The notes: generated by a model not told the origin, from the letters alone. DNA of 64,000 bases from Chloroflexota bacterium (GCA_026713485.1 JAPOOK010000003.1:4085-68084); one strand, 5' to 3'; counted from the stretch's first letter, positions 20,194-36,995 are shown. Numbers and translations: made by a program.

Positions 20194-20210
20194 TAAGTCT
20201 GCGGAGCAGC

Positions 20211-20882: not shown

Positions 20883-20951
20883 GGTTGTTCAGCCTTGTCT
20901 GTGCCTGCTGCGCCGCCGACAATGTTCTGCGGCGTCAAAATAAACTCTACT

Positions 20952-20969
20952 TTGTGACTTTTGACACAA
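20952..20969. promoter_or_regulatory. Rex/CRP-like palindrome between rplY and the sulfite oxidase gene
   Basis: TTGTGACTTTTGACACAA versus TTGTGAAnnnnTTCACAA. Confidence 0.35.
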
Positions 20970-21065
20970 TATCGTAGCTATAAGCCCCTGGTACGGTCAA
21001 GCTCGCTCGGCTGAACGCATACGGCACAATGTTGAAGTGAGTCAGATGCCCTATAAGAGACCCCA

Positions 21066-22322
21066 ATGACGAACGAAGACACGAAGCACGCCGCGGCAAA
21101 ACCGGACGACGAGTCGCTATGGAGGTATGCCAGAGCGACAGGAATGGACCGGCGGGAATTCCTGCGCCTGCTGATTGTTGGCGGCAGTGCGCTTGTCATC
21201 GCTGCATGCTCCGGCAACCTCTTCAAGGGGGAATCGGCTGCCCCGACGCTAACTCCCGTGGGCCAGCGGCTGTTTTTCAAGGATCCTTCCCCGTTTATCG
21301 CTCGCGACGAAGTCGGCCTGGAAGCCCGGCTGGAGAATATGCAGGGCCTGATTACGCCCAACGAGTACTTCTTCGTCCGAAACAACGGACCAACACCCGT
21401 CGTCGATGTGTCCAATTGGCAACTGTCTATAGAAGGCGATGCGATAGCGGAGCCGCTACAACTCTCATTCGAGGAATTGCAGCGCTTGCCCAGCAGAACG
21501 TACATCTCCTACCTGGAATGTGCGGGAAATCACCGCGCTATGTTCGGTATCCTGCAGGGCCGACAATCCTCGGGGACGCAATGGGCGACAGGCGCGATTG
21601 GGAACGGAGAGTGGACCGGAGTGTCGCTGCGAGACGTGTTGACGCTCGCCGGTATCGATGATGCTGCGGTGAGTGTGTTGCTGGTTGGCCTGGATACCGA
21701 AGCCCCTGAAAATGGCTTTCGCTATGTCTTGCCCGTCGACAAGGCGATGAATGCTGACACAGTGTTGGCCTACTCGCTGAACGGCGAGCCTCTGCCGAAG
21801 GATCATGGCTTTCCTCTCCGCGCCGTCGTGCCGGGCTGGGTCGGCAGTTCCCACATCAAATGGCTGGGTCGCATCGTCGTGTCCTCAGAGAAACTGTGGA
21901 CGCGCAACAACACAACTTCGTACGTCCTCATCGGAGACGACTACCCACCGGAAGGCGAAGCCTGCGGCAAGCCCGTGACGATGCAGGTCATTAAGAGCGC
22001 GCTTGCACTGCCATGGCCGGCGCAACTGGAGAAAGGCCAACATCACATACACGGCTACGCGCACTCGCCCGCCGGCCCTATCTCTCGGGTTGAGTGGAGC
22101 GCGGATAGCGGGCGAACGTGGCGTGCCGCCGATCTGACTACCCCCCAGCCCGACTTTTCATGGGTCAAGTTTGAGTTCACATGGGATGCCGAGGCAGGCG
22201 AGCACACGATCATGACTCGCGCCACCGACTCTGCCGGCAACACCCAGCCCAATCACGTGCCCTTCAACGAGAAGGGCTATCTCTTCAACCAGCCCCTTCC
22301 GCACCCCATCCGCGTGGCGTAA
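21066..22322 (+). CDS. Sulfite oxidase-family molybdopterin enzyme, probable Tat lipoprotein
   Basis: DRREFL twin-arginine motif, VIAAC lipobox, FFVRN, LECAGN Mo-ligand Cys, DHGFPLRAVVPGWVG, KWL, Ig-like dimerisation domain. Confidence 0.88.
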   Translation: MTNEDTKHAAAKPDDESLWRYARATGMDRREFLRLLIVGGSALVIAACSGNLFKGESAAPTLTPVGQRLFFKDPSPFIARDEVGLEARLENMQGLITPNEYFFVRNNGPTPVVDVSNWQLSIEGDAIAEPLQLSFEELQRLPSRTYISYLECAGNHRAMFGILQGRQSSGTQWATGAIGNGEWTGVSLRDVLTLAGIDDAAVSVLLVGLDTEAPENGFRYVLPVDKAMNADTVLAYSLNGEPLPKDHGFPLRAVVPGWVGSSHIKWLGRIVVSSEKLWTRNNTTSYVLIGDDYPPEGEACGKPVTMQVIKSALALPWPAQLEKGQHHIHGYAHSPAGPISRVEWSADSGRTWRAADLTTPQPDFSWVKFEFTWDAEAGEHTIMTRATDSAGNTQPNHVPFNEKGYLFNQPLPHPIRVA

Positions 22323-22327
22323 CGCTT

Positions 22328-23875
22328 CTACGCCGCCGCACCCAGCTCACGCGGCCGATACTGAAGGGCCTCGCTAAGGTGGCGAGATGTGATGGTTGGC
22401 TCTTCTGCCAGGTCCGCAATCGTCCGTGCCAGCTTGAGAATGCGGTGGAAGCCTCGGGCACTTAAGTGCAGTTGCTGCATCGCCGCTCGCAGAAGCCCAT
22501 GCGACGCATCATCCAACCCGCAATACTCCCGCACCTCCACTGGCCCCATGTCCGCGTTGGTCAACACGCCGGGCGAACTGCCGAAGCGCGCACGTTGTCG
22601 CGTCCGCGCTTCCTCCACGCGGCTCCGCACGACCGCTGACGTCTCACCTATCCGGTCATCTGTCAGCTTCTCGTACTCCACGCGCGGCACATCCACAAAG
22701 ATGTCGATGCGGTCCAGCAGCGGCCCGCTGATGCGGCGCTGGTAGCGGTCAATGGTCGACGGGCTGCAAGAACACGCCTTCACAACGTCCCCGTAGAACC
22801 CGCACGGGCAAGGGTTCATCGCGCCGACAAGCATGAAATTCGCCGGGAAGGTGATCGAGCCCTGGGCGCGACTTATCGTGACCGCCTTGTCCTCCAGCGG
22901 CTGCCGCAGGACCTCCAGGATGTGGTGTCCGAACTCAGGCATCTCATCGAGGAACAGGACACCGCGATGGGAAAGCGTGATCTCGCCCGGCCGCGGCCAA
23001 TGTCCACCGCCCACCAGCCCCGCGTTGGAAACTGTGTAGTGCGGGGACCGGAACGGACGGGCAGAGATGAGTGGTCGCTCCGGCGGCAGCAGGCCTGCCA
23101 CGCTGTAGATCTTCGTCACGTCCAGTGATTCATCCCGCGTCATCGTTGGGAGAACGGAAGGCAGGCAGCGCGCGAGCAGCGTCTTTCCACTCCCCGGCGG
23201 CCCCATCATCACCAGGTTGTGGCCGCCCGCCGCCGCAACCTCTAAAGCCCGTTTCACGTTCTCCTGCCCGCGGACGAGCGACATATCAAATCCGTCGATG
23301 GTTGCCGTTCCGCCCGGGTCTGCCGGCGGCTCCGTCTGATAGAACGGGCGGAACGACTGTTCACCGCTGATGTGCTCTACAAGTTCCCGCAGGTTGCCCG
23401 CAGGCAGCACCTCGATGCCGTCGACGAGCGCAGCCTCCGGCGCGTCGACAGCCGGAACAACGATCTGCGTTAGGCCGCCCTCTCTCGCCAGCGCCGTCAT
23501 CGGCAACACGCCCTGCGTGTGGCGCACTTGCCCCTCAAGCGAAAGCTCGCCAAGGAAACCGACCTCATCCAGCGAGAATTGTGCCCCTGCCTGCCCGGAG
23601 CCGATCAGGATACCGGCCGCTATGGGCAGATCGTAAGATGTTCCGTTCTTCTTGAGATCCGCGGGGGCGAGGGAGACTGTGATCCGACGCTGCGGAAACT
23701 CAAACCCGGAATTCCTGATTGCCGCGCGAACACGCTCCCGGGCCTCCTGGACGGCCGTGTCCGGCAGCCCCACAATCGTGAAAGCGGGCAGCCCGGGCGC
23801 GATGTCCACCTCCACCTCAACTATCGAACCCTCAAGACCAACAACCGCGCAGCTGCGCACCTGTGCCAACGTCAT
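22328..23875 (-). CDS. comM: ComM/YifB Mg-chelatase-like AAA+ ATPase
   Basis: IVGLPDTAVQEARERV, GPPGSGKT, RPFRSPH, FLDEMPEF, NPCPCG, SARG..RILKLARTIADL. Confidence 0.92.
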   Translation of the reverse strand: MTLAQVRSCAVVGLEGSIVEVEVDIAPGLPAFTIVGLPDTAVQEARERVRAAIRNSGFEFPQRRITVSLAPADLKKNGTSYDLPIAAGILIGSGQAGAQFSLDEVGFLGELSLEGQVRHTQGVLPMTALAREGGLTQIVVPAVDAPEAALVDGIEVLPAGNLRELVEHISGEQSFRPFYQTEPPADPGGTATIDGFDMSLVRGQENVKRALEVAAAGGHNLVMMGPPGSGKTLLARCLPSVLPTMTRDESLDVTKIYSVAGLLPPERPLISARPFRSPHYTVSNAGLVGGGHWPRPGEITLSHRGVLFLDEMPEFGHHILEVLRQPLEDKAVTISRAQGSITFPANFMLVGAMNPCPCGFYGDVVKACSCSPSTIDRYQRRISGPLLDRIDIFVDVPRVEYEKLTDDRIGETSAVVRSRVEEARTRQRARFGSSPGVLTNADMGPVEVREYCGLDDASHGLLRAAMQQLHLSARGFHRILKLARTIADLAEEPTITSRHLSEALQYRPRELGAAA

Positions 23876-24053
23876 ACCAACACCTCCGACTAGCGCGCCA
23901 AATTCACCGATAACGAACGCGCGTTCTGACGACGGTACCATGCCTTGTGCGGCATTGCAACATGCGTTCGGAAACATTCCTGCATTCCCGTGCCGCCATC
24001 ACGAACTGGAGTACCATGGAATTGGCAAAGCCCCAGGCATAAAGGCAAGCATC

Positions 24054-24185
24054 ATGATCTTTGGATATGACTACACCCACTGGCTCGTCATCGGCTCCCT
24101 GGCGCTGCTGACGGCCGCTCCTGTCATCGGTATCGCCGCCGGCTTCATCATGAGCAGGCTCAGGCGCCGCCGCGCCGCACAGTAG
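24054..24185 (+). CDS. Small single-pass membrane protein (43 aa)
   Basis: MIFGYDYTHWLVIGSLALLTAAPVIGIAAGFIMSRLRRRRAAQ: hydrophobic helix followed by a basic tail. Confidence 0.5.
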   Translation: MIFGYDYTHWLVIGSLALLTAAPVIGIAAGFIMSRLRRRRAAQ

Positions 24186-24252
24186 GAATTCGTCTCGGCT
24201 GGTAGAGCGGCGGCCCCCGATAAGGCATGGACGGAAGCGGAAGGAACAATCC

Positions 24253-24726
24253 GTGACGCACATACTGCTGGCGGTGGACGGATCCGGCCAGGATGTGTCG
24301 TCCGTGGAGTGGTTGGGCAAGCTGTTCAGCGGCGTAGCGGCCACCGTCCAAATCACCGTGCTTCACGTTGCTCACCTCAGGATGCCCGGGCCATCCTCCA
24401 TTCGGCTCGGATTCGTCCCGCGCCTTCCGTCCCGTGAAGACCTCGAAGGCATTGAACAGCAGGCTCGTACGGAGGCGGACGAGATTGTCAGTTCAGTCAA
24501 GGAAGACCTTGAGGGCTACGGCTTCACGGTGACTACCATGGTGGAATGGGGCCCGACGCCGGATGTGATTCTCGAGGTGGCCGAGGCAAACGGCTGTGAC
24601 ATCATTGCGATAGGTCGCCACGGCGCAGGCAAGGTGAGCGATCTCATCGCGGGCAGTGTCTCGGGCCGCGTCATACGCCGTGCCAGCGTCCCCGTCCTCA
24701 TCTTGCGAGCTGATTCGCCGGAGTAG
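24253..24726 (+). CDS. Universal stress protein
   Basis: ILLAVDGS, DIIAIGRHG, GSVSGRVIRRASVPVLI. Confidence 0.9.
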   Translation: MTHILLAVDGSGQDVSSVEWLGKLFSGVAATVQITVLHVAHLRMPGPSSIRLGFVPRLPSREDLEGIEQQARTEADEIVSSVKEDLEGYGFTVTTMVEWGPTPDVILEVAEANGCDIIAIGRHGAGKVSDLIAGSVSGRVIRRASVPVLILRADSPE

Positions 24727-24737
24727 TTTTCGCGCGT

Positions 24738-25091
24738 CTAGGTAGAGGCCGGTTCCTCGAACCGTTCGATAACCTCGAACTCCAGCGCGTAGACCTCCAC
24801 TTCGTCCACGGGGCTGTTGAACTTCTTCCCCTCGCTGAACTGCTCGATCCACGCCGCCTTGTCCGGCCAGCCCTCGGCCAGAGCCTCCTCCCGCGTCATA
24901 TCGCCGATGCGCTGCTTCCACACTCGCGTGACGAGAATCTTGGCAAACGGTTTCTCACCGGTCATCGGCGGGCGGCGATAGAGCAGGTGCTCTGCGCCCT
25001 CTTTCGCCCGCGCCCGTGCCCACAGCTTGCGCGCCTGTGATTTCTCGCCCCGCAGAATCAGTTGAGCACTCGGTTCCTTGAACAAAATCAT
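24738..25091 (-). CDS. ASCH-domain protein
   Basis: ILRGEKSQAR..., MTREEALAEG, VYALEF pattern of ASCH/YqfB-like fold. Confidence 0.75.
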   Translation of the reverse strand: MILFKEPSAQLILRGEKSQARKLWARARAKEGAEHLLYRRPPMTGEKPFAKILVTRVWKQRIGDMTREEALAEGWPDKAAWIEQFSEGKKFNSPVDEVEVYALEFEVIERFEEPAST

Positions 25092-25170
25092 GCGGATACT
25101 ATACAGGCGTGGCAGGCCGTCCGGTGGTCACGCCGCAATAAACGGCATTTGACACAGTTGGGAGGTAGTC

Positions 25171-25503
25171 GTGCAGCAGTTTCTCGTGCTGACCGTGGGT
25201 CGCGCTTTGGACCCGCAGGATGGAGATGAACAAACACAGGCATATATGGGTGAGTGGCAGGCGTGGCTGGGCGGCTTGGTGGCTTCCGGCGCGTTGGACT
25301 CCGGCAGACCTCTGGAGCCCGGCGGCAAGGTGGTCGATAAAGATGGCGTCAAAGACTATGTGCCCGAGGAAATTGGCATTGGCGGCTATCTGATCATCAA
25401 CGCGGAATCCTTGCAGGACGCTGCGAAGATTGCGCAGGGTTCGCCGCACGTCGCCATCGGTGGAAGTGCAATCATCCGTCCCTGCCTCAGCGTCCCCCAA
25501 TAA
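25171..25503 (+). CDS. YciI-like dimeric alpha-beta barrel protein
   Basis: W.AW, G.PL, IGGYLIINAESLQDAAKIA..SP, G...IRP. Confidence 0.8.
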   Translation: MQQFLVLTVGRALDPQDGDEQTQAYMGEWQAWLGGLVASGALDSGRPLEPGGKVVDKDGVKDYVPEEIGIGGYLIINAESLQDAAKIAQGSPHVAIGGSAIIRPCLSVPQ

Positions 25504-25526
25504 GGCCAGCGCGGCCTCGCAACCGG

Positions 25527-25742
25527 CTATGTGTAGATCGCAATAACGACGGCCTCAGTGGGGTCGGACGGGTCTGACGCGAAGGCCACGATGCAGGATC
25601 GGCCGGCCAGTAATTCCGAGGACGGGATGGCCCGGCTGACACGCGCCCCCGTCAGCCACGTCGGCACACTCCCGTCCAACTGAACGTCCGCCGTGAATGA
25701 CGACGAATAGAATTCCTTGAGTGTGCCGCGCCTTAGCTCCAT
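25527..25742 (-). CDS. Hypothetical small beta protein (possible OB fold), last gene of the capsid operon
   Basis: Starts 2 nt after the stop of the 661-aa gene with GGAG SD; strand pattern GTLKEF..TADVQL..GRSCIVAF..AVVIAIY. Confidence 0.7.
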   Translation of the reverse strand: MELRRGTLKEFYSSSFTADVQLDGSVPTWLTGARVSRAIPSSELLAGRSCIVAFASDPSDPTEAVVIAIYT

Positions 25743-25744
25743 GC

Positions 25745-27730
25745 CTACACTCCGCCCAGCTCAATGTCCTGCTGATATACCGGCTGAGACGTGCCGATGT
25801 CGTAACGTGTCCTCAGACCTGCAACCCGCAGCCGCTCGGATGCCCACCCTACTGACGGCGCGGTGACGGACACGACGTCATGCAGTTGCTGCCCGGCGTT
25901 CACGGGAACTGTGATGCGCGCAAACGGCTGCAGCACGCCGCGTGACCGAAGCTCGGCGTCTGCTCTCGTGGCCACAACCTCCGGCGTAGTCAGAGAGCGA
26001 TCAACGACCTGCACCAGGAGACTGCCCACAGATTCCATCTCCCGCTGATTGACTGATTCGGCGATTGCTCCGTGCCCGTAGACTTGCACATGGTTGACAG
26101 GGGAAAGGGCGGATGAACGCGCGACGTCCAGCAGCGCATGGTCGCCTGGCTCCCCATAGAAATAGACGGCAGGGTCAGTCTCACGCGTACGGATTGCCTC
26201 GAGCACGCCATCTGAGAAACGCAGAACATCCGGCACGCGGGACATCAGGCGGGTGATGGCAACCGCAAGGCTCTCGTTCGGGGAGATTGTGATGGCGGGA
26301 TAGGTGGCCACGATGGCGGGGCTTGAGCGTGCGAGCGTCGTGGACATACCCGCCATCGTGAGCAGTTGGCTCAGGATGTTCCACACAGATGCCGTGTGCG
26401 CGGGCCACGTGAGTTGACGCCGCGCCCGCATTTTGGCCATAAACCACCACGGGTCCTCCGCCTCAAGCACCGTTACAAGGCTGCCCCGCCGCGTCTCGCG
26501 CCTTACCTCCCGCACCCAGTAGCGTTGCGCCTGGCCCGTCTCACGCCCCGTGCCTGTTTCATATCCCCACGCAATGCTGAGTTCGTGACCCAATGGGCCG
26601 GAGCCCACGGTAACTGACGAATCAAGCTGTGGCCCCTCTGCCAATACGAGTGTTACCGAAGCTCCGCGAGGGGTCTCTTTCATGTCCGCGGCTATGACAG
26701 ACCCGGAAATATCGATCGACGGCGTACCGATGTGCGCTCGCCACACCTCGGACGGTGTCGTCAGCCACGCAAAGGAGGCCTCGGCGGCCAAGGCAGGCCC
26801 TGTGCCTCCAATCTGGCCGAACGGCGTGGACTCGCGCCAACGATGGTCGCGAAAGCGCGCGCCCGCCGAAGCATGCGTTGTCATCGTCTGTGAGTAGCCG
26901 GCCGCTCCGCCATATGCCTCGACGAAGCTGATGCGTGGCCCGTCCGCCGCGCAGACGCCGGGATCCCGATACGTCACATCAGCACCCGGCGCCGAGGCGA
27001 TCACTTCACGCAGCATCGACCATGTTCCCGCCGTCTGAGATGAACCCGCGCCAAGGTTGCACGTCCATACACCTGACGATCTGTTTGACAGTGTCCCGCA
27101 CGCCACAACCGCCCAATCGCCGTCGATGTGACCGCAGGCGATGCCGTCCACTGTCCTCAACGAGTTGGTCCAAGCGGAGGGCGACGACCATGTTCCTGCC
27201 GTTCTTGTAATCGAGCGAACGATGCCCGTTGACTCCGCGTAGAGCAGCAATGCTCCGCCGCCCGCGCCGGACGCCGCCGCAAGCGATGTGACGTTCGCCG
27301 CCGCCGTTGCGACCGTGCGCGGCGAGCCAAACGTCAAACCGTCGTCTCGGCTCGTCCGCTCGCGGATCGTCCTCTGATTGGCTGCAACGTCAAGGACATG
27401 GATCTGTCCGTCAATCTCAGTGACTGCCACGCCTCCGGAGGCGGCCGTCTCCCCAAGGTTCTGCCACATTCCGAACTGCGAATCCGGTCCGGGAGAGGCG
27501 ATTCGCTGGACAAAGAGGCCGTTCGGGTTTGCCTGGGCACGGATGCGAATGAGTGAGCCGCCGGACGTTATGACGGCGGCATGTGGTCCGACCGGCTCCT
27601 GCCCGGAGGTAAGCCGTTCCCACCGGAGCTGCGTCACACCGCCCCACCGCTCTGCGAGCATGGCGTGCACGTATGGAACCGCCGCACGGTCGCGCTGAGC
27701 AGCCAACAGTGATTCAGATAGAGAATGCAT
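25745..27730 (-). CDS. Putative virion tail/hub-like protein (N-terminal beta-propeller-like, C-terminal hub-like)
   Basis: 661 aa; Asp-box-like SRDDGLTF; C-terminal VNHVQVYG, ITVPVNAGQQLHDVVSV..RVAGL resembling phage tail hub ends; lies in the capsid operon. Confidence 0.55.
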   Translation of the reverse strand: MHSLSESLLAAQRDRAAVPYVHAMLAERWGGVTQLRWERLTSGQEPVGPHAAVITSGGSLIRIRAQANPNGLFVQRIASPGPDSQFGMWQNLGETAASGGVAVTEIDGQIHVLDVAANQRTIRERTSRDDGLTFGSPRTVATAAANVTSLAAASGAGGGALLLYAESTGIVRSITRTAGTWSSPSAWTNSLRTVDGIACGHIDGDWAVVACGTLSNRSSGVWTCNLGAGSSQTAGTWSMLREVIASAPGADVTYRDPGVCAADGPRISFVEAYGGAAGYSQTMTTHASAGARFRDHRWRESTPFGQIGGTGPALAAEASFAWLTTPSEVWRAHIGTPSIDISGSVIAADMKETPRGASVTLVLAEGPQLDSSVTVGSGPLGHELSIAWGYETGTGRETGQAQRYWVREVRRETRRGSLVTVLEAEDPWWFMAKMRARRQLTWPAHTASVWNILSQLLTMAGMSTTLARSSPAIVATYPAITISPNESLAVAITRLMSRVPDVLRFSDGVLEAIRTRETDPAVYFYGEPGDHALLDVARSSALSPVNHVQVYGHGAIAESVNQREMESVGSLLVQVVDRSLTTPEVVATRADAELRSRGVLQPFARITVPVNAGQQLHDVVSVTAPSVGWASERLRVAGLRTRYDIGTSQPVYQQDIELGGV

Positions 27731-27774
27731 CTTTGGTCACCAGGGAGTTGATAGTACTGCCGAGTCCGGACGGC

Positions 27775-28392
27775 CTAGAGTTCGCCGTCGTCTTCCGGGT
27801 GGAAGAGCTTTCGCGGGCGAAAGCCGGAACGCCGGCCGATTCGCGCCAGCTGCAGCTCAAAATCTGCCATCCGCTCCTCCGCCCAAGTCAGGTACTGCCG
27901 CCACACGTCCTGTCCGCCGACGTTGAGACGATTGACCGCGTACGCTGCCCATTCCAGCGCTGCGTACGCTGCCGCGCCGGTGATTACCAGCTCCTCCAGC
28001 GCCTCAGGTAGCGTGGACGCGGAGTCCGTCAGCCGATGAAGCGCCCCGTAATAGACAGTGACGCTCTCGCCGGCATTCGGCTCGCCGGGCAGGTTCAACA
28101 AAAGGGTGTCGCCCCATTGGTTGAAGCGCACGCGGGACGGTGGATGCCTGCCCACGGGATATTCGACGGCCTCAACGACAACGCGATCAGTCAGGTCCGC
28201 AACCGAAACCTCCCGGCTTCCGTCTGTCAGTCCTCTTGAGACCGTCTTCTCATGCGGCGCGACCTTGGAGACCTTGGCCAGCGCTCGCTCGATGTGGCGA
28301 TTCAATACATCGTCTGTCCAGCGATAGCTGTTGGCGTCCTCATCGTGCAGATCGCGCCGCACGCGCTCTCGCACCTGTCCCAGCGTGCTCAT
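27775..28392 (-). CDS. Putative phage head-tail adaptor-like protein
   Basis: MSTLGQVRERVRRDLHD...WTDDVLNRHIERAL...TLPEALEELVITGAAAYA, a helical-ended adaptor-like pattern; directly follows the capsid gene. Confidence 0.6.
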   Translation of the reverse strand: MSTLGQVRERVRRDLHDEDANSYRWTDDVLNRHIERALAKVSKVAPHEKTVSRGLTDGSREVSVADLTDRVVVEAVEYPVGRHPPSRVRFNQWGDTLLLNLPGEPNAGESVTVYYGALHRLTDSASTLPEALEELVITGAAAYAALEWAAYAVNRLNVGGQDVWRQYLTWAEERMADFELQLARIGRRSGFRPRKLFHPEDDGEL

Positions 28393-28438
28393 TTTCCGTC
28401 CTTCTATCCCGGGCCGAGTCCTAAAAGATTCCTGGTTG

Positions 28439-28467
28439 GTCGTCCCCGCAGGAACGCGGGGGCCGAC
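28439..28467 (-). terminator. GC-rich stem-loop between capsid and adaptor genes (no U-tract; attenuator or mRNA stabiliser)
   Basis: gtcgtccccgca-ggaac-gcgggggccgac inverted repeat. Confidence 0.45.
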
Positions 28468-28504
28468 TGTGGGTGTTCTTCTGAAGTAATCGCGAACCGG
28501 GAAA

Positions 28505-29395
28505 TCAGTTGCGAACCCCGGTAAGCTTGGCGAGCTTCGCCGTGTTGAAAAGGGCAAGGCTTACGTACCACTTCACGCGCGTCCGGCGTGCATCCTTTGT
28601 CTCCAGGTTGCCAACGCGTTCCACCTGCAACCCCCCGGGGGATGTAAGCCCGACGAGACTGCCCTCACCGGCTTGAAAGGCGAATACCGTGGAGCAGTCC
28701 GCGCTGGTCCCAACCGTCTGGGCATCGGAGATCCAATCATTCACGCCCACCGGGATGCCGTCGTAGTACTGCACCATCTGGCCGAGCTCATCGCGGTCGG
28801 ACACCACGATTCCGGAACCGGACGCGCGGGCGAGCGAGTTGAGCTTGCGACGTGAGCGGCGGCTCATCAGGATCATGTCCGGCTTCCCGCCCTTGACCGT
28901 GTCGATGAGTTCATCGAGCTTGTCGAGGGTCAGCGCGCCGCCGTTCTGACCCATCGTGAGGGCCTGATCGCCCGTCGCCAGGATATCGACGCCATCGAAC
29001 GAGTCTTCGTCCGTATCCGCGTTCCCGTTGATGAACGTGTCCTCGAACTTGTGCTGGATGGCACGTGCTTTCAACTGCACAACAGCCGCCTCAAGGTCCT
29101 GGATGTTGGATCGTGTCGTCGCAAGGTAATTGTCCACGTCCGCATCGCCGCCCAGGATGGAGAGCGTCGCCGTCAACTGGGTGAACGTCGGCGTACTCTC
29201 CGCCCACGAATCGCCAACGCTGTAGAAACTGACCGTCGGCGCGGCCTTTTCCCTGTTGTAGGTGAGACCGTTCCCGACAATCTCGATGAAGGGCAGCGAT
29301 TGGAGAACAGGGCTGTCCTTGATCACGGTTTCTATCACGCCCTGCAACAGGACGTCGTTGGAGAGCTTGGCTGCTTCCGTCAATGTGAGGGCCAT
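28505..29395 (-). CDS. Phage-type major capsid protein (HK97 fold, epsilon15 gp7/BPP-1-like)
   Basis: MALTLTEAAKL...VLQSLPFIEI.GN.LTYNRE, LSILGGDADVD, FINGN..SFDGV, LDKLDELID, YDGIPV, RTRVKWYV; strong GGGAGGTGA SD before ATG at 29395. Confidence 0.85.
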   Translation of the reverse strand: MALTLTEAAKLSNDVLLQGVIETVIKDSPVLQSLPFIEIVGNGLTYNREKAAPTVSFYSVGDSWAESTPTFTQLTATLSILGGDADVDNYLATTRSNIQDLEAAVVQLKARAIQHKFEDTFINGNADTDEDSFDGVDILATGDQALTMGQNGGALTLDKLDELIDTVKGGKPDMILMSRRSRRKLNSLARASGSGIVVSDRDELGQMVQYYDGIPVGVNDWISDAQTVGTSADCSTVFAFQAGEGSLVGLTSPGGLQVERVGNLETKDARRTRVKWYVSLALFNTAKLAKLTGVRN

Positions 29396-29543
29396 TCGAT
29401 TCACCTCCCTGGGTGTGCTGTCAGAGCCGTATTCAATGGACGAAAGATAAGAACACCCGTACTTATCCCGCAACTCTATGTGGCACATTCATATGTCCTG
29501 TCGTGTTGCCGTCATCACATATGGGGAGTACCCTTTTCCCTAT

Positions 29544-30887
29544 ATGCAGGACTTAATGCCGGTAATGGGTGTGCTTGCCGGGGCGTTGCTTATCGCCGTA
29601 GCAGTGCTGGAATGGCGCATGAAATTCTTTAGCAACCTCTTTCGCGGAATGTCTGAGCCCGGCAGGAACGAATCGCCGCCGGACACAGCTGTTGCTGACG
29701 TTGCCGATTCCGAGGAAGTTCATGCGGAGGTGGAGCAGGACTTCTGGCGTAGCTTTGAGCGGCAGATTGCCTCTGCCGAGCGGCGCGGGGACAACGAGGA
29801 AGCTGAGCGCCTCCGCCGGATGTATGAATCGCATGAAGAGGCATGGCGCGCCCAGCGGGCGCTAAGGAGCCGAGCCCCTTCTTCGCGGGATGCCGCCTCG
29901 CCAAATGCGTTGCAGGCGCACCTGCGACCGGAGGTGCGTCTCTTGCTGGAGCGTTCTGAAGTTCTCGAAACTTTCTCGGCGCAGGACTGGGTGTTCCGTG
30001 GCAACGCCTACCTCGCTATTGGCGAGGATGACCGAGCGGCGGCCGCATACAGGCAGGCGCTGCGGGAACTGCCGGAAGACCCCCAGATTCGTTTGCTATA
30101 CGCCGTCTCGTTGCAGCGGGACGGTGAATTACGCGAATCCCTTCAGATTTATGATGCGTTGGCGTCCGCGAGCGGGGAAAACGAACCGGCGATCCTGGCC
30201 GGCCGTGGTAACGTCCTTGCTGAGATGGACAGATTTGAAGATGCCATTCGGGACTTCGATTCCGTGTTGCGCATCAACGGACAGGACGGCGACACAATCT
30301 ATGACCGCGCTCGGGCCCTATCTGATTCCGGCCGGCTTGATGATGCCATCGTCGGCTTTGAGAGCGCCCGAACATACCTGTCCGACAACCCCGATCTGCA
30401 CAACGATCTCGGCAACGCGCTTGCCCTCGTGGGTCGCAATGACGAGGCCCTGCAGTCCTATGATCGGGCCATCAACCTTCGCCCTGCCTTTGCCCGCGCC
30501 CACTACAACCGTGGCGTTACCTACTCCCGCATGGGGCAGTTTGAAGACGCGGCAGACGCCTTTGAGCGTTGCCTGCGTCTTCGGTTAGACATCCCGGAAG
30601 CACACTACGGTCGGGGTGTCGCCCTTGCACGACTCGAACAGTTTCGAGATGCCGTTGCCGCATTCGACCGCGCGGTCGTCTTGCGCCCCGGCTTTGCGGA
30701 CGCTCTCTTCCACAAGGCCAGGGCACAAAGCCGACTTGGCCAGACGACAGAGGCATTTGAAGCTCTGCGACAGGCGGTGACTGCCTCTCCCCCTTTGCGT
30801 GTACAAGCCAGGACGGAAACGGACTTTGGCGCGTTGTACTCGGACCCGGACATCGCGTCACGGTTTGAACAACTGATTGCATCGTGA
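29544..30887 (+). CDS. Membrane-anchored TPR-repeat protein
   Basis: N-terminal TM helix, coiled region, many TPRs (GNALALVG..EALQSYDRAINLRP), C-terminal ARTETDFGALYSDP cap; start uncertain (29478-29566). Confidence 0.85.
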   Translation: MQDLMPVMGVLAGALLIAVAVLEWRMKFFSNLFRGMSEPGRNESPPDTAVADVADSEEVHAEVEQDFWRSFERQIASAERRGDNEEAERLRRMYESHEEAWRAQRALRSRAPSSRDAASPNALQAHLRPEVRLLLERSEVLETFSAQDWVFRGNAYLAIGEDDRAAAAYRQALRELPEDPQIRLLYAVSLQRDGELRESLQIYDALASASGENEPAILAGRGNVLAEMDRFEDAIRDFDSVLRINGQDGDTIYDRARALSDSGRLDDAIVGFESARTYLSDNPDLHNDLGNALALVGRNDEALQSYDRAINLRPAFARAHYNRGVTYSRMGQFEDAADAFERCLRLRLDIPEAHYGRGVALARLEQFRDAVAAFDRAVVLRPGFADALFHKARAQSRLGQTTEAFEALRQAVTASPPLRVQARTETDFGALYSDPDIASRFEQLIAS

Positions 30888-31531
30888 AGACGCTTGCCGT
30901 CAGCATCGTCGTGGTGCTCATCTCGACGGTTCTTGGCATCCTGCACCTTGTCGGCCTGATCACAATCCCCTTTTCAGACATCGGCAGCGGCATCGTGACG
31001 GGCTTTATCCCGGTAGCCATCACACTCGTCGCGTTCACAGCCCTGGTCATACTGGCGCTCACCCTCCGCAACCAGGCGGAACTGCGAAACAGGGAGCTTG
31101 AATACGAGGAGGCTGCAGCCGAGGTTGACGCCGTGCGCCGACAAGGGGAGTTGGTCAACGCCATCCGCCTGCGTCTTTCTGCGGACACGGAGGATAGTGA
31201 AGAGGAACGACAGGAACTGGCCGCAGAGTTGGTGACCGCCGCAGAGCGCTACCACACCGTCCTTCGCGGATTCATCCGCGCCCGCCCGGAGATTGCTCGC
31301 ATTGAACGGGACGCCATTGCGTCCTATCTGGCCGAGGCGGAAGCTGAGCTGCGGCGCCTCCGCGCGGATAGCTCCGCGGCATTTGAGGACATCCCGATTG
31401 TCTCTCCATTCACCGTTCCGGACTCTCCAACCCAAGGGCCTGGACCAATTGATGGTGATGCCTCGCCCCCCGGTAACTCCATTGGCGATGTCCTATCGGA
31501 AGGCGCAGACAACGGGAGACGGCGAGCGTGA
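30884..31531 (+). CDS. Two-TM membrane protein with coiled coil
   Basis: Two hydrophobic helices then an Ala/Glu/Arg helical region; GTGA overlaps with both neighbours. Confidence 0.75.
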   Translation: MKTLAVSIVVVLISTVLGILHLVGLITIPFSDIGSGIVTGFIPVAITLVAFTALVILALTLRNQAELRNRELEYEEAAAEVDAVRRQGELVNAIRLRLSADTEDSEEERQELAAELVTAAERYHTVLRGFIRARPEIARIERDAIASYLAEAEAELRRLRADSSAAFEDIPIVSPFTVPDSPTQGPGPIDGDASPPGNSIGDVLSEGADNGRRRA

Positions 31532-33300
31532 GCCTGCCGCCCCTCCTCGATCTCCGGGGCACCGCCATTGAACTCCTTGACATGCCCCCGGACTGGCCAC
31601 GCGGCGATGACTGGATCGATGCCGACATCCTCGCCTCCCGCCTACCTGACGCCGCCGAGCAGATCGGTATCCTCCTGTACCATCTCCTCGAACAGGCTTC
31701 TGATGACAAGAACACATCGGACTGGCTCCTTGAGGGACGCGCGTGGGCAAGCACCGGCGATTGGCTTCGTGCCCTCGTCGCCTATGAATACGCGCTTGAT
31801 GGAGCAACCGACAAGCAGGCCCCGGATATCTGGTATCTGCGCGGACTGGCGCTCATGCGACAGTGGCAGTTCGATGCGGCCGTTGAATCGTTCGATTTTG
31901 CGCGCCAGAATCGCAAGATCATCGGCAAAGTGTTCTATGCAAGCGGCGTGTCCCTCTTGGCGCTGGCCAGACCGCAGGATGCCCTACGCGCATTCGATAG
32001 GGTCATCGCCGCTGACTCAGACAACGTGGCCGCCATCACAGGACGCGCCGCGGCGCTGGCGGAACTGAGTCGATTTGACGATGCTCTACTGGCCATGGAG
32101 AGTATTCTGCGGCTTGGCTCTGACCATCCCGCTCGCGTCCTCAACAACCGCGGCAACGCACTCGTCCGGCTGCGTCGTATCGAGCCTGCCTTCGCCAGCT
32201 ATCGACGTGCGATTGAAATCGATCCGAACCTGATCGAGCCGAAGGTCAACTCCGGCAACGTCTTCATGCTGGCCGGCCAGCCTCAGCAAGCGCTGACATC
32301 GTTCCAGGAGGCGCTGCACGATCATGAACCCCTGCCTGGGTTGCACGCGAACGTTGCCGCCGCCCTGACGGAGCTGGAACGTTACGATGAGGCGATTGCG
32401 GCATGTGACCGCGCCATCGCCCTTGAGCCCGGCCACGCTCGCTCCCTGTCCACCAAGGGTCGAGCCCTGCTGGCCGTCGGCCGGGCTGAGGACGCCCTCG
32501 TTGCGCTGCAGGACGCCCTTCTCAGGCGACCTGATTACATCGAAGCGCTCGTCTATCGCGGCCTCGTCCTCAATCAGCTCGATCGGCTCGATGACGCACT
32601 CGGCACGTTCAACCTCGCGCTCCAATTGGCGGAACGACATCCGGACGCCCACCACGGACGTGGCATCGTCCTATACCGCAAGGACTTGCTGGGTGACGCG
32701 CTTAGCGAGTTTGAGCGCGCCGTGGCCATTGAGCCTCGCCACGCAGACGCGGAGAACAGCCGCGGCAACGCCTACATGGAGTTGCAGGACTATGCCGCGG
32801 CGCTGGAATCATACAACCGCGTCCTCACGTTGCGTCCTGATGACCCGGACGCGCTGAACAACCGTGGCAACGCGCTCGCGCAGATGCGCCGCACCATGGA
32901 GGCCATCGATTCATTTGATACCGCGCTCCGTGTCGACCCGAATCACGCTGATGCCCTCTACAACAGGGGCGTTGCCTTCGCCGACGTGGGGATGCTCACG
33001 CAGGCGCTCGACTCACTGAACGCATCGGTGCAGGCGCGCCCCGACGATTCCTCGGAGGCCCTGTTCTGGTACGCACGTGTGCTTGGGCGGCAGGGACGAG
33101 CGGAACTGGCACTGAACGCCCTGCGTGCTGCCGTCGCCTCCAACGAGGAAGTCAGGAGCTGGATCTGGGGCCAGGAAGATTTCGACTCACTAGAAAACGA
33201 TTCCCTCTGGGGCCGCCACTATCAGGCCCTGCTCAGAGGCCGCGAAACGCGGAGCACAACGGGCAACGGCCAACAAGACAACGGGACTAACGCGAAATAG
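31528..33300 (+). CDS. TPR-repeat protein
   Basis: More than ten TPRs (NNRGNAL, YNRGVAF); C-terminal IWGQEDFDSLEND cap. Confidence 0.88.
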   Translation: MSLPPLLDLRGTAIELLDMPPDWPRGDDWIDADILASRLPDAAEQIGILLYHLLEQASDDKNTSDWLLEGRAWASTGDWLRALVAYEYALDGATDKQAPDIWYLRGLALMRQWQFDAAVESFDFARQNRKIIGKVFYASGVSLLALARPQDALRAFDRVIAADSDNVAAITGRAAALAELSRFDDALLAMESILRLGSDHPARVLNNRGNALVRLRRIEPAFASYRRAIEIDPNLIEPKVNSGNVFMLAGQPQQALTSFQEALHDHEPLPGLHANVAAALTELERYDEAIAACDRAIALEPGHARSLSTKGRALLAVGRAEDALVALQDALLRRPDYIEALVYRGLVLNQLDRLDDALGTFNLALQLAERHPDAHHGRGIVLYRKDLLGDALSEFERAVAIEPRHADAENSRGNAYMELQDYAAALESYNRVLTLRPDDPDALNNRGNALAQMRRTMEAIDSFDTALRVDPNHADALYNRGVAFADVGMLTQALDSLNASVQARPDDSSEALFWYARVLGRQGRAELALNALRAAVASNEEVRSWIWGQEDFDSLENDSLWGRHYQALLRGRETRSTTGNGQQDNGTNAK

Positions 33301-33330
33301 CAGGTGCGTAGGATCTAGCCAGCTCCCCCA

Positions 33331-33483
33331 TCACCCCTCGCCGCGCCCACGTTCCAGGGCAACGCTAAGCGCGATTCCGATGGCCGTGCCCAACACAATC
33401 CCTACCCACAACGGCCCCACCGTCAGGCCGATGAACAACCCGACGCCAATCCCAATGACGATGCCGACAACGGTCAGCGCCAC
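33331..33483 (-). CDS. Small Gly-rich two-helix membrane protein
   Basis: VALTVVGIVIGIGVGLFIG...GIVLGTAIGIAL GxxxG zipper; GTG start 7 nt after TAAGGT -10-like element (alternative start 33522). Confidence 0.6.
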   Translation of the reverse strand: MALTVVGIVIGIGVGLFIGLTVGPLWVGIVLGTAIGIALSVALERGRGEG

Positions 33484-33540
33484 GCCGGCAACCTTAGAAG
33501 ACTCTGCCGGAGCGCATGGCAATGCGAGGAGAGAAGAACC

Positions 33541-34452
33541 CTATCCCCCGCTCTCCCGCGCCGCCGCCTCTTCCTCCGCCGTCCGGCCGTGGTAGCGAGC
33601 GTCGCGCTCATTGCGGAACGCCTCCCAGCCGCGGTCCTGCAGCACCTGCAGCCTCTCTCGAGTCTCATCGTCCTGCTGCGATGATGCCCACAGATCGGCA
33701 AAGGCCTCGTCATCGCGATAGTTGAGCGCCGTGCGGAACCCGCCAACCTCATACGAGCGGTTGATCAGCATCTTGTTCATCCGCACCGTCGCCGCAGGCA
33801 GTGCCGCGAGCCTCCGCGCGATGTCCATCGCCGTGTCCATCACCTTGTCCGCAGGCGCGACGCGATTCACCAACCCCATGGATAAGGCCTCCTGCGCGTC
33901 GACCATATCCCCCAGCAGCAGGATCTCCTTCGCGCGCTTGAGTGTCACCACGTACGGCGTCATCAACACCGGCGGGCCGTAGCCGTGCCGAATCTGGATC
34001 TCGCCCACCTTCGCGTCTTCCGCCAGCACTGTGAAATCGCACACGCCGGCCAACTCGAATGCCAGCCCGATGGCGTAACCGTGCACTGCGGCGATGACCG
34101 GTTTGCCCAGTTCCCATACCGTGATGTGCGCCGCGCCGGGCGTCGCGCGCTCCAATGAATCATCGTTGGCCAGGATGCGGCGGGACGACTCTGTAATATC
34201 GCCGCCCGCGGAGAACGCGCGACCCGCGCCGCGAATAATCACTGCGCGCACGGCATCGTCCGCGTCCGCCTGTGCGAGGGCCTCTTTCAGCGCCTGCGTC
34301 AACGCGCCGTTGATGGCATTCAGCACGCCGGGCCGATGCAGCGTCACGATGGCGATGCTGCCATCCTCTGCAGTTTCATACAGGACGGGCTGACCGCCGC
34401 TCTCATCATCAACAGGCTCCGGCGGGCCGCTCGGCCGATTTTCTTGTGTCAT
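33541..34452 (-). CDS. Enoyl-CoA hydratase/isomerase family protein
   Basis: LHRP..LNA, GAGRAFSAGGD, KPVIAAVHGYAIG, AQEAL.MGLVNRV. Confidence 0.9.
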   Translation of the reverse strand: MTQENRPSGPPEPVDDESGGQPVLYETAEDGSIAIVTLHRPGVLNAINGALTQALKEALAQADADDAVRAVIIRGAGRAFSAGGDITESSRRILANDDSLERATPGAAHITVWELGKPVIAAVHGYAIGLAFELAGVCDFTVLAEDAKVGEIQIRHGYGPPVLMTPYVVTLKRAKEILLLGDMVDAQEALSMGLVNRVAPADKVMDTAMDIARRLAALPAATVRMNKMLINRSYEVGGFRTALNYRDDEAFADLWASSQQDDETRERLQVLQDRGWEAFRNERDARYHGRTAEEEAAARESGG

Positions 34453-34462
34453 TATTTCCCCC

Positions 34463-34488
34463 GTCAATCCCGCGAAAGCGGGAATCCA
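34463..34488. repeat. dRS3/REP-like palindrome (family B)
   Basis: gtcaatcccgcgaaagcgggaatcca. Confidence 0.65.
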
Positions 34489-34524
34489 GATATGTTGGCG
34501 TGTCGCGATTGTAGCAGGGACGTG

Positions 34525-36992: not shown

Positions 36993-36995
36993 TGC

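What the first reader, a model, noticed from the sequence alone, without database searches (positions are those of the whole stretch)
25527..29395. Stand-alone four-gene phage structural operon: candidate domesticated GTA-like particle or capsid nanocompartment
Seen: four intact co-directional ORFs (capsid 296 aa, adaptor-like 205 aa, 661 aa, 71 aa) with short spacers and host-like codon style. They are flanked by YciI/ASCH/USP genes and a divergent TPR operon. No integrase, terminase, portal, scaffold/protease, tape measure, lysis or replication gene and no pseudogene debris is recognisable in the window. Known: decaying prophages usually leave fragments and att sites, whereas gene transfer agents (RcGTA, BaGTA) and encapsulins are intact, host-maintained HK97-fold systems, and GTA genes can be split across loci. 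Inference: a host-domesticated particle system in a Chloroflexota-like lineage, with packaging genes elsewhere or absent.
Basis: partly seen in the sequence, partly recalled or inferred. Interest (0 to 1): 0.85.

Follow-up and report, generated by a model that had tools for sequence, protein, structure and literature searches.

The report
Split, host-kept phage particle genes
These four genes are the head, neck and stubby tail-tip part of a phage-derived DNA-packaging particle that Dehalococcoidia bacteria have inherited and kept intact for a very long time, with its other genes scattered elsewhere in the chromosome, much like a gene transfer agent.

Summary
Four intact minus-strand genes at 25527-29395 sit alone among housekeeping genes. 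They encode an HK97-type capsid, a head-tail adaptor, a 661-aa fusion of a beta-propeller with a gp27/Mu-gp44-type tail hub, and a 71-aa OB-fold protein.

The missing genes are elsewhere in the same genome. TerS, TerL, a small HTH protein and the portal lie on contig C22. A lone scaffold-like gene lies on C52.

All three loci are single-copy in 22 of 22 genomes of the genus. In single-contig genomes they lie 47-116 kb and 5-281 kb from the capsid. A rare promoter element (TGTGNCA[CT]-N6-TTG[AC]) precedes all three loci in this genome and recurs at them in most genus genomes examined.

dN/dS is 0.07-0.16, the same range as the host flanks. The capsid is found in 172 of 301 Dehalococcoidia genomes, and its tree follows host families (24 label changes, the minimum possible).

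No integrase, replication or lysis gene was recognised beside the loci. The nearest cultured phages are about 43% identical.

Best reading: a domesticated, vertically inherited, GTA-like particle system. Particle production and DNA transfer are untested. The nanocompartment reading is rejected. No report of it was found in print.

The parts
28505..29395 (-). Major capsid protein, 296 aa, HK97-type (phrog_212 family)
   Evidence: phrog_212 6.2e-71; Pfam Phage_capsid/GP7/SU10_MCP. It is the only PF05065 match in the genome. Found in 22/22 genus genomes at 83-100% identity. dN/dS 0.073.
27775..28392 (-). Head-tail adaptor, 205 aa
   Evidence: PF24175 SU10_adaptor 5.3e-09, above the cut-off. Weak match to PDB 7wmp_m 'adaptor protein gp12', E 0.28. 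Always lies between capsid and the 661-aa gene in relatives. dN/dS 0.100.
25745..27730 (-). 661-aa tail-tip protein. Residues ~1-334 form a beta-propeller with a BNR/Asp-box motif, resembling lectins. Residues ~335-661 form a gp27 / Mu gp44 / gpD / VgrG-type baseplate hub.
   Evidence: AlphaFold2 model on 92 sequences: pLDDT 94.9, pTM 0.91. Foldseek against PDB: Mu gp44 1wru TMt 0.70, 3d37 0.72, 8fqc_C1 0.72, E 1e-13 to 1e-16; Photorhabdus propeller lectins E ~1e-10. Profile against PDB sequences: sialidase BNR 2e-05. The family has 721 representative clusters. dN/dS 0.177 for the propeller and 0.131 for the hub.
25527..25742 (-). 71-aa five-stranded OB-fold protein, read as a needle-less spike base or plug under the hub
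   Evidence: AlphaFold2 pLDDT 92.7. Foldseek: the top hits are the generic OB-fold of IF1 (7.6e-04). P2 gpV 3qr8 (7.8e-03), Mu baseplate chain 9ki1_V (1.0e-02) and T4 gp5 1wth_A (1.2e-02) are also listed. It follows the hub gene in the relatives where it was found. dN/dS 0.128. The role is inferred from position plus fold.
29470..29487 (-). Promoter element TGTGCCAC-N6-TTGC, about 90 nt upstream of the capsid ATG, shared with the two other loci of the system
   Evidence: Pattern TGTGNCA[CT]-N6-TTG[AC] gives 6 hits in the 1.9-Mb genome (expected ~2.4). Three of them lie upstream of the capsid operon, the scaffold gene and the TerS operon. One hit at the same place in 14/16 genus capsid loci, 6/6 scaffold loci (G000's own included) and 3/5 TerS loci (G000's own included). 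No hit in 1.085 Mb of loci from other families.

Best explanation
The four genes are the head, neck and tail-tip operon of a phage-derived DNA-packaging particle that Dehalococcoidia carry as chromosomal genes of their own. It is a GTA-like system.

In this genome the gene set is split over at least three loci:
1. capsid - adaptor - hub/propeller - OB-fold plug (the window);
2. a small membrane protein - 60-aa protein - TerS-like - 109-aa protein - TerL - small HTH protein - SPP1-type portal (G000:C22:~3000-7580);
3. a lone scaffold-like gene (G000:C52:19710-20243).

Proposed working (inferred):
- A common regulator switches on the three promoters through the shared TGTGNCA[CT] element.
- Scaffold and portal nucleate an HK97-fold head.
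- TerS and TerL fill it with DNA.
- The adaptor closes the portal.
- A trimer of the 661-aa protein docks its gp27-like hub onto the adaptor as a stubby, tube-less tail.
- The 71-aa OB-fold protein plugs the hub.
- The beta-propellers bind a surface glycan of a recipient cell.

The loci lie tens to hundreds of kb apart and nothing for replication or integration is attached. The particle therefore cannot carry its own full gene set in this genus, and whatever it packages would mostly be host DNA.

Shown: gene identities and folds, the split, single copy, synteny, purifying selection, host-congruent phylogeny, the shared promoter element.

Inferred: that particles are made, what they contain, and that they deliver DNA.
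For: Identity of the parts.

Packaging locus in the same genome: portal PF05133 1.1e-14 and phrog_64 5.8e-27; TerL Terminase_6C 4.5e-05 and phrog_5909 1.5e-09. These are 49-60% identical to the TerL and portal that sit beside the capsid in other Dehalococcoidia. TerL has 140 invariant columns over 11 sequences, among them an ARQGGKNE stretch. I recall that stretch as a Walker-A-like motif; no tool labelled it.

Scaffold locus: a 178-aa acidic protein with heptad-like, coiled-coil-looking repeats (by eye). It is 31-42% identical to the ORF directly upstream of the capsid in 9 full clusters. Its flanks are RelA/SpoT, S20 and a NucS-like gene.

Genus level:
- Capsid 22/22, TerL 22/22, scaffold 22/22, each as one gene.
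- Same host flanks at the capsid locus in 16/16 and 5/5 loci.
- Rex-o208-[TerS..portal] in 4/4 loci.
- TerL lies 47-116 kb from the capsid in 8 single-contig placements. The scaffold lies 4.8-281 kb away in those I worked out (positions).

Selection: dN/dS 0.073, 0.100, 0.155 and 0.128, against 0.047-0.171 for host flanks, with similar dS.

Shared promoter element.

Class level:
- Capsid in 172/301 genomes; 157 of those 172 have a single match.
- TerL in 205/301.
- 162 of the 172 capsid-positive genomes also have TerL (my hand comparison of the tables).
- The same families are empty for both genes: f24 0/17, f26 0/7.

Capsid tree: 79 rows, 25 host families, 24 label changes (the minimum possible). 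Shuffled labels average 64.6, and 0 of 200 shuffles are as low.

No integrase, recombinase, replication or lysin Pfam family in the 64 non-core ORFs (the ORFs already identified as module genes by similarity were left out) of 4 full clusters. None beside the three G000 loci. The genome's 4 tyrosine recombinases lie on other contigs. No tape-measure family was found.

The closest relatives in IMG/VR are 4-16 kb fragments with the same gene order. The best cultured phages are 40-44% identical.

GC and GC3 of four full clusters in relatives range widely (GC 0.53-0.69); host genome GC was not computed.
Against: - No particle, packaged DNA or transfer has been observed, and no RNA run holds the stretch.
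- 129 of 301 class genomes lack the capsid at E <= 1e-10. This fits repeated loss but also gain.
- Conservation of flanking genes within other families is uneven: strong in f22, f29, f7 and one f52 pair, near zero in f17, f32, f60 and within genus g84. Movement of the cluster over long times is therefore not excluded.
- In many families the roughly ten genes are contiguous in about 10 kb. A head of the size used by the nearest phages (43-60 kb genomes) could hold all of them. A satellite-like, self-transmitting life in those lineages cannot be ruled out.
- Family f38 falls into two capsid clades and f70 is unresolved.
- Genus g24 carries 4-6 TerL paralogues.
- No lysis gene or regulator has been identified.
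- The head size (T number) is unknown.
- The promoter element was defined from the loci it is then counted at. Only its rarity elsewhere and its conservation across species are independent.
Confidence: 0.6

Rival explanations
1. It is a selfish element: a capsid-forming phage satellite or a defective prophage lineage specific to Dehalococcoidia. It still moves, perhaps borrowing lysis or further tail parts from a helper phage. The genus of the window merely holds a fragmented, dying copy.
For: Contiguous ~10-kb clusters occur in many families and would fit into one head. Host flanks vary between families and within some of them. IMG/VR lists more than 511 such stretches as viral. There are extra TerL paralogues in g24. 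One HTH_17 (excisionase-like family) ORF lies inside one cluster, L183.
Against: No integrase, primase or replication family was found in 4 of 4 annotated full clusters or beside the G000 loci. 157 of 172 capsid-positive genomes have a single capsid match. The capsid tree tracks host families. In the genus all three fragments are intact in 22/22 genomes, with dN/dS 0.07-0.16 and a conserved common promoter element. That is not what decay looks like.
Confidence: 0.13
2. It is a domesticated particle with a job other than gene transfer. Examples would be a phage decoy or superinfection block, a vehicle for releasing DNA or nutrients into a biofilm or sponge host, or a killing particle aimed at competitors through the hub and propeller.
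For: The evidence for domestication is the same as for the best explanation. The tail tip is unusual: a hub fused to a lectin-like propeller, with no tube. The genus is found mainly in sponge metagenome runs.
Against: TerS, TerL and portal are retained under constraint, which argues that DNA packaging matters. No toxin or effector domain was seen in the cluster.
Confidence: 0.17
3. It is an encapsulin-like nanocompartment: a capsid shell used to enclose cargo enzymes.
For: An HK97-type capsid stands apart from the packaging genes within the window.
Against: Portal and large terminase co-occur with the capsid: 162 of 172 capsid-positive genomes have TerL (hand comparison). Adaptor, hub and scaffold are present. 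The capsid matches phage major head families, and no cargo gene is adjacent.
Confidence: 0.02
4. It is an inert leftover of an old prophage, conserved only by chance or by linkage.
For: Few genes remain and no lysis or regulatory genes were recognised.
Against: All ORFs are intact in 22/22 genus genomes. dN/dS is 0.07-0.16 at dS ~0.8-1.1. Retention is class-wide. A conserved promoter element is shared by three unlinked loci.
Confidence: 0.03

Closest known systems
RcGTA-type gene transfer agents of Alphaproteobacteria (Rhodobacter capsulatus, Caulobacter)
   Same: Phage-derived head and packaging genes kept by the host. Inheritance follows the host, with purifying selection. No replication or integration genes. 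Genes are spread over several loci. [quoted passage not shown]
   Different: A different phylum and a different ancestral phage. No sequence comparison with RcGTA was run. No tape-measure family was found here, and no tube or protease gene was recognised. From recall, RcGTA has a protease, a tail tube and a tape measure. The tail here is only adaptor + hub/propeller + OB-fold protein. No regulator or lysis genes are identified, and there are no experimental data.
VSH-1 of Brachyspira and BaGTA of Bartonella (independent GTAs, VSH-1 with a divided genome)
   Same: Independent domestications outside the RcGTA lineage, with divided gene sets. They are cited in PMC11841831 (passages and reference list seen).
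   Different: No homology was tested. Those agents were shown experimentally to package and transfer DNA. This one has not been.
Head modules of siphoviruses such as Pseudomonas phages Ab18 and PaMx11, Streptomyces phage Rowa and Clostridium phage FA70
   Same: The capsid is 40-44% identical over its full length. The order is the same, TerS-TerL-portal-...-scaffold-capsid-...-adaptor, as in the full clusters of Dehalococcoidia.
   Different: Those are complete 43-60 kb phages with head-closure, tail terminator, tube, tape measure, lysis and replication genes. All of these are missing here.
Capsid-forming phage-inducible chromosomal islands (cf-PICI; recalled, no paper read)
   Same: A small cluster encoding its own terminase, portal, capsid and connector, without a full tail.
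   Different: From recall, cf-PICIs carry an integrase, a regulator and replication genes, and they are mobile. None of these families was found here. In the window's genus the genes are dispersed and fixed in place.
gp27 / Mu gp44 / P2 gpD / VgrG baseplate hubs with gp5 / gpV / gp45 OB-fold spikes
   Same: The C-terminal half of the 661-aa protein has this fold (TMt 0.64-0.72). The gene after it encodes an OB-fold, as in hub-spike gene pairs.
   Different: Known hubs cap a tail tube in long-tailed phages, tailocins, eCIS and T6SS. Here there is no tube or sheath gene. The hub is fused to an N-terminal propeller, and the OB-fold protein has no needle domain.
Encapsulins
   Same: An HK97-type shell protein in a host genome.
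   Different: Encapsulins have no portal, terminase, adaptor or tail parts. This system has them.

Membership tests
Gene transfer agent (functional class) | Phage-derived structural and packaging genes resident in the host chromosome and inherited with the host | tested here: met
   22/22 genus genomes have syntenic, single-copy loci. The capsid tree follows 25 host families with the minimum 24 changes.
Gene transfer agent (functional class) | No capacity for self-propagation: no replication or integration genes, and a gene set not transferable as a unit | tested here: met
   In this genus the loci lie 47-116 kb (TerL) and up to 281 kb (scaffold) from the capsid. No integrase or replication family lies beside them. 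For families with contiguous ~10-kb clusters this feature is inconclusive.
Gene transfer agent (functional class) | Genes maintained by selection on the host | tested here: met
   dN/dS 0.073-0.155, within the range of flanking host genes (0.047-0.171), at dS ~0.8-1.1.
Gene transfer agent (functional class) | Particles are produced and contain more or less random host DNA | not testable with these tools
   Only anecdote. A run labelled viral metagenome holds contigs of a ~94-95% relative across the whole 18-37 kb stretch, host flanks included. This cannot be told apart from cellular carry-over.
Gene transfer agent (functional class) | Particles deliver DNA to recipient cells | not testable with these tools
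   None.
Gene transfer agent (functional class) | Expression under host control as one regulon | tested here: inconclusive
   The promoter element is shared by the three loci and conserved in the genus. The regulator is unknown. A small HTH gene between TerL and portal is a candidate.
HK97-type major capsid protein (PF05065 / phrog_212) | Profile match above the curated cut-off over the whole protein | tested here: met
   PF05065 35.9 bits (cut-off 24.2). phrog_212 6.2e-71 over residues 1-296.
gp27 / gp44 / gpD baseplate hub | Hub fold | tested here: met
   Foldseek E 1e-13 to 1e-16 and TMt 0.64-0.72 to 1wru, 3d37, 9ki1_G and 8fqc_C1, on a model with pLDDT 94.9. Sequence-profile support is weak (1wru E 0.096). 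Trimer formation was not tested.
Central spike OB-fold domain (gp5 / gpV / gp45 N-terminal domain) | OB-fold that sits under the hub | tested here: inconclusive
   The OB-fold is clear (pLDDT 92.7). The best matches are generic (IF1). gpV, a Mu baseplate chain and gp5 appear at E 0.008-0.012. No Pfam match.
Integrated prophage, intact or defective | Integrase and att sites, lysis, replication or lysogeny genes, or their debris, beside the structural genes | tested here: not met
   None in the window, at C22 or C52, or in 4 full clusters of relatives.
Encapsulin nanocompartment | Shell protein without portal or terminase, with an adjacent cargo gene | tested here: not met
   Portal and TerL are present in the genome and co-occur across the class. 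No cargo-like neighbour.
Capsid-forming phage satellite (cf-PICI-like) | Integrase plus replication module next to the packaging and capsid genes (features recalled) | tested here: not met
   No such Pfam families in 64 non-core ORFs of 4 full clusters or at the G000 loci.

The most novel reading that the evidence does not exclude
Dehalococcoidia carry an ancient, independently evolved gene transfer agent of a new build. It has a scaffold-assembled HK97 head whose whole 'tail' is an adaptor, a propeller-bearing gp27-like hub and an OB-fold plug. It is encoded by about ten genes that the host has scattered and wired to a common promoter. It would be a major route of gene exchange in this hard-to-culture class, which includes organohalide respirers, SAR202-like marine lineages and sponge symbionts. 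It could also serve as a natural DNA-delivery vehicle for organisms that lack genetic tools.
Probability: 0.4. Interest if true: 0.88.

Novelty: new variant of a known kind. Interest (0 to 1): 0.8.

Why it matters
According to the review passages I read (PMC11841831), experimentally known GTAs come from only a few lineages: Alphaproteobacteria, Bartonella, Brachyspira, Desulfovibrio and Methanococcus. The same review asks whether such agents are outliers or widespread.

A class-wide, vertically inherited system in Chloroflexota would add an independent origin. It has a clear comparative signature: a split gene set, a shared promoter, and a phylogeny that follows the host. It also has a tail design not described for GTAs.

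It makes a long-standing question testable, namely how Dehalococcoidia exchange genes. It also names concrete proteins for EM, proteomics and virome read-mapping.

Practically, many 'viral' contigs of this type in IMG/VR (more than 511 relatives) may be host genes rather than phages.

Tried and rejected
- Complex prediction, hub domain (residues 335-661) with the 71-aa protein: no verdict, score 0.00. It says nothing either way.
- The look-up of sequencing runs: no RNA holder listed, so expression could not be examined.
- Read laying: contigs only. The virome-labelled run covers host flanks as well as the module, which is not discriminating.
- Pfam and PHROG on the 661-aa and 71-aa proteins: nothing.
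- PDB sequence search with the 71-aa profile: nothing meaningful.
- The adaptor against PDB sequences: only E 0.28.
- DUF6941 homologue on C27. It lies beside the cluster in one relative only and next to hydantoinase genes in G000. Dropped as unrelated.
- ORFs 's77' and 's175' on C22 are probably off-frame artefacts of high GC. The real small gene there is the HTH frame at L040:4332-4640.
- Promoter pattern: the three further genome hits (C29 twice, C40) have no clear downstream gene. Rfam gives only a sub-threshold CcsR1 hit.
- The pattern is absent from loci of other families, so it is a genus-level signal only.
- Literature: searches found no description of a GTA or a conserved phage-like cluster in Dehalococcoidia. 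Subscription journals and supplements were not searchable.

Full report
THE OBSERVATION

Four minus-strand ORFs lie at 28505-29395 (296 aa), 27775-28392 (205 aa), 25745-27730 (661 aa) and 25527-25742 (71 aa), separated by short spacers.

- The first is a major capsid protein: phrog_212 6.2e-71, with Pfam Phage_capsid, GP7 and SU10_MCP above their cut-offs.
- The second is a head-tail adaptor: PF24175 SU10_adaptor 5.3e-09.
- The other two match no Pfam or PHROG family.

All other ORFs of 80 aa or more in the 64-kb window were scanned. They are housekeeping or metabolic genes (gyrB, dnaN, dnaJ, L25, ComM, USP, ASCH, two TPR proteins, cobalamin genes, serS, transhydrogenase, sucCD and others) or have no match. 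None is phage-like.

Composition is flat and the GC3 of the module equals that of its neighbours. The only tRNA is 22 kb away, and no att-like repeats flank the module. Only the 'YciI' label of the neighbouring 133-aa ORF is not.

THE TWO UNKNOWN PROTEINS

The 661-aa protein belongs to a large family: 721 representative clusters at E <= 0.001. A model built on 92 sequences is very confident (pLDDT 94.9, pTM 0.91).

- Its C-terminal half (~335-661) has the fold of the baseplate hub of long-tailed phages and contractile systems. Matches include Mu gp44 (1wru) TMt 0.70, Neisseria tail protein 3d37 0.72, and Milano, P1, PVC, eCIS and VgrG hubs, at E 1e-13 to 1e-16.
- Its N-terminal half is a beta-propeller. 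It resembles Photorhabdus propeller lectins (E ~1e-10) and carries a BNR/Asp-box signature (2e-05).

The 71-aa protein is a five-stranded OB-fold (pLDDT 92.7). Its best structural matches are generic (IF1). The OB-fold domains of P2 gpV, a Mu baseplate chain and T4 gp5 are also listed at E ~0.01. Because it directly follows a hub gene, I read it as a needle-less spike base or plug. That is inference from position plus fold.

THE REST OF THE SYSTEM IS IN THE SAME GENOME

In more distant Dehalococcoidia the capsid is preceded by a ~130-190-aa ORF and an SPP1-type portal. Further upstream lie a ~460-aa and a ~120-aa protein.

Searching those against the window's own genome (1.9 Mb, 72 contigs, 91% complete) gave a second locus on contig C22:
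- portal at 2998-4335 (PF05133 1.1e-14; phrog_64 5.8e-27);
- a small HTH gene;
- TerL at 4792-6240 (Terminase_6C 4.5e-05; phrog_5909 1.5e-09);
- a 109-aa protein;
- a TerS-like protein;
- a 60-aa protein;
- an 83-aa membrane protein.

All are co-directional. The flanks are DUF805 on one side and Rex and ATP synthase genes on the other.

The search also gave a third locus on contig C52. It is a lone 178-aa acidic protein with coiled-coil-looking repeats (by eye), 31-42% identical to the ORF directly upstream of the capsid in nine full clusters. It lies between RelA/SpoT, S20 and a phosphoesterase on one side and a NucS-like gene on the other. I call it the scaffold from its position and character. 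No family names it.

The genome holds no second capsid and no tape-measure family. Its four tyrosine recombinases lie on other contigs.

CONSERVATION IN THE GENUS

Capsid, TerL and scaffold are each present as one gene in 22 of 22 genomes of the genus.

- The capsid locus has the same neighbours (TPR operon on one side; the four-gene module in 16/16, ComM within the stretch in 14/16) in 16 of 16 loci from genome contigs and in 5 of 5 loci fetched by handle.
- The packaging locus has Rex-o208-[TerS..portal] in 4 of 4 loci.
- In single-contig placements TerL lies 47-116 kb from the capsid (G004, G018, G013, G007, G008, G021, G009, G014).
- The scaffold lies 169-281 kb away in G008, G007, G013, G018, G021 and G014, but 37 kb in G009 and 4.8 kb in G016 (positions).
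- In G016 the scaffold sits directly behind the TPR operon on the same strand. This suggests how the split arose.

Pairwise dN/dS over 17 genomes is 0.073 (capsid), 0.100 (adaptor), 0.155 (661 aa; 0.177 propeller, 0.131 hub) and 0.128 (71 aa). Seven flanking host genes give 0.047-0.171, at comparable dS.

A COMMON PROMOTER ELEMENT

About 90 nt upstream of the capsid ATG, about 72 nt upstream of the scaffold ATG, and upstream of the first gene of the TerS operon lies TGTGNCA[CT]-N6-TTG[AC]. It has a near-palindromic ATGTGnCACAT core abutting a -35-like hexamer, with a -10-like hexamer about 17 nt further on.

- The pattern occurs 6 times in the whole genome on both strands (about 2.4 expected from composition). 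Three of the six are these promoters.
- Across the genus it occurs once per ~20-kb locus and always at that place: 14 of 16 capsid loci, 6 of 6 scaffold loci and 3 of 5 TerS loci (both counts include G000's own).
- It is absent from 1.085 Mb of loci of other families.

The pattern was derived from these loci, so the independent evidence is its rarity elsewhere and its conservation between species. It argues that three unlinked loci form one regulon. The regulator is unknown. The small HTH protein (HTH_23 / sigma-70 region 4-like) is a candidate.

DISTRIBUTION BEYOND THE GENUS

Record titles of relatives name Dehalococcoidia or Chloroflexota MAGs throughout the best 80 of at least 568 loci.

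In an even sample of the class:
- The capsid profile matches 172 of 301 genomes (134 of 223 high-quality ones). 157 of the 172 have a single match.
- The TerL profile matches 205 of 301.
- By my hand comparison of the two tables, 162 of the 172 capsid-positive genomes also have TerL.
- Both genes are found, or not found, in the same families: g1 16/16 for both; f17 15/17 and 16/17; f22 11/12 and 12/12; f24 0/17 for both; f26 0/7 for both.
- These tallies include one unpublished genome (G260). Without it they are 171/300 and 204/300.

Outside the class, 14 of 222 sampled Chloroflexota genomes carry a more distant capsid.

Gene order is conserved: TerS-(109 aa)-TerL-HTH-portal-[0-5 kb of other genes]-scaffold-capsid-(0-3 small genes)-adaptor-(small gene)-hub-plug. 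It is broken at different points in different lineages. 8 of 64 non-genus loci, and 25 of 60, show a portal (in one search, TerL as well) within the fetched stretch. Many have only the capsid-to-plug part. Family f55 has only scaffold-capsid at that place.

A capsid tree of 79 genomes from 25 host families needs 24 changes of the family label, the minimum possible. Shuffled labels average 64.6, and 0 of 200 shuffles are as low. 13 of the 15 largest families are each one side of a branch; f38 is split in two and f70 is unresolved. I picked the genomes from the hit list by family before building the tree.

WHAT IS NOT THERE

In four full clusters, 64 non-core ORFs (the ORFs already identified as module genes by similarity were not rescanned) gave no integrase, recombinase, replication, protease, tube, sheath, tape-measure or lysin family. 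The flanks are host metabolic genes. GC content of these loci ranges from 0.53 to 0.69 across four full clusters in relatives; I did not compare it with host genome GC.

The nearest cultured phages are complete siphoviruses only 40-44% identical in the capsid. The more than 511 relatives in IMG/VR are, in the best 80, fragments of 4-16 kb with the same gene order. They are not larger phage genomes.

INTERPRETATION

- The phylogeny follows the host.
- The closest homologues are not inside complete phages.
- dN/dS is far below 1.
- There is no adjacent prophage.
- Terminase, portal and scaffold exist elsewhere, as predicted.

A retained TerS-TerL-portal set argues for DNA packaging and against a nanocompartment. 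In the window's genus the gene set spans up to ~280 kb, so the particle cannot carry itself. That is the defining logic of a GTA. The GTA review I read in passages says GTAs look like remnant phages and are often encoded at several loci hundreds of kb apart (PMC11841831).

The tail design is unusual: a hub fused to a propeller, with a plug but no tube. I propose, as inference only, that a hub trimer docks directly on the adaptor.

RESERVATIONS

- Nothing shows that particles are made or what they hold.
- 129 of 301 class genomes lack the capsid.
- Flank conservation inside other families is uneven.
- Where the ten genes are contiguous they would fit in one head, so a satellite-like life is not excluded there.
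- One genus (g24) has 4-6 solo TerL paralogues, 79-84% identical in DNA.
- No lysis gene was recognised. The 83-aa membrane protein at the head of the TerS operon is only a guess for a holin.

PRIOR DESCRIPTION

Seven full-text searches found no report of a GTA or a conserved phage-like cluster in Dehalococcoidia. Subscription journals and supplementary files were outside reach.

VERDICT

It is a domesticated, split, co-regulated phage-derived particle system that is conserved across a bacterial class. It is best described as a new GTA-like variant, with its function still to be shown.

Noticed in passing
G048 (L121-L124) and other genomes of family f22, genus g24: These genomes have 4-6 strong TerL matches each but a single capsid. 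In G048 the extra copies are solo TerL paralogues, 79-84% identical in DNA, without a portal beside them.
   Followed up: partly
window 29478-33300 (+); L051 5056-5760: A TPR / 215-aa / TPR operon runs divergently from the capsid operon, and its annotated start overlaps the capsid promoter element. In G016 the scaffold gene lies directly downstream of this operon on the same strand. The TPR genes may be linked to the system in this genus.
   Followed up: partly
G000:C29:36993 and 37034 (+); G000:C40:68289 (-): Three further copies of the promoter pattern, two of them in tandem 41 nt apart beside a cysteine-desulfurase-like gene. There is no clear downstream ORF, and only a sub-threshold Rfam CcsR1 hit.
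   Followed up: partly
G082, G105, G156 (family f49, genus g54; closed 1.4-1.5 Mb genomes): TerL is present (with one TGA inside the match in G156), but no capsid match at E <= 1e-10 or 1e-30. This may be a lineage that has lost most of the system.
   Followed up: no
window 18000-37000, run X19: A run labelled viral metagenome holds contigs of a ~94-95% identical relative across the whole stretch, housekeeping flanks included, at even depth. This could be cellular carry-over or packaged host DNA.
   Followed up: partly
window 43185-44636: A 353-aa ORF with low GC3 (0.53, against ~0.75 around it) and no Pfam match sits next to an HTH_3 protein, in the lowest-GC stretch of the window. It may be a small foreign insert.
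   Followed up: no
L040 7699-8325 (+) = G000:C22: A 208-aa protein lies divergent from the TerS operon. It has an N-terminal hydrophobic stretch that looks like a signal peptide (by eye) and a Pro/Thr-rich tail, and it is kept in that place in 4/4 genus loci.
   Followed up: no
window 17050-19698 (-): GyrB is long (882 aa). Its Toprim match spans residues 431-563 for a 96-position profile, which suggests an insertion.
   Followed up: no
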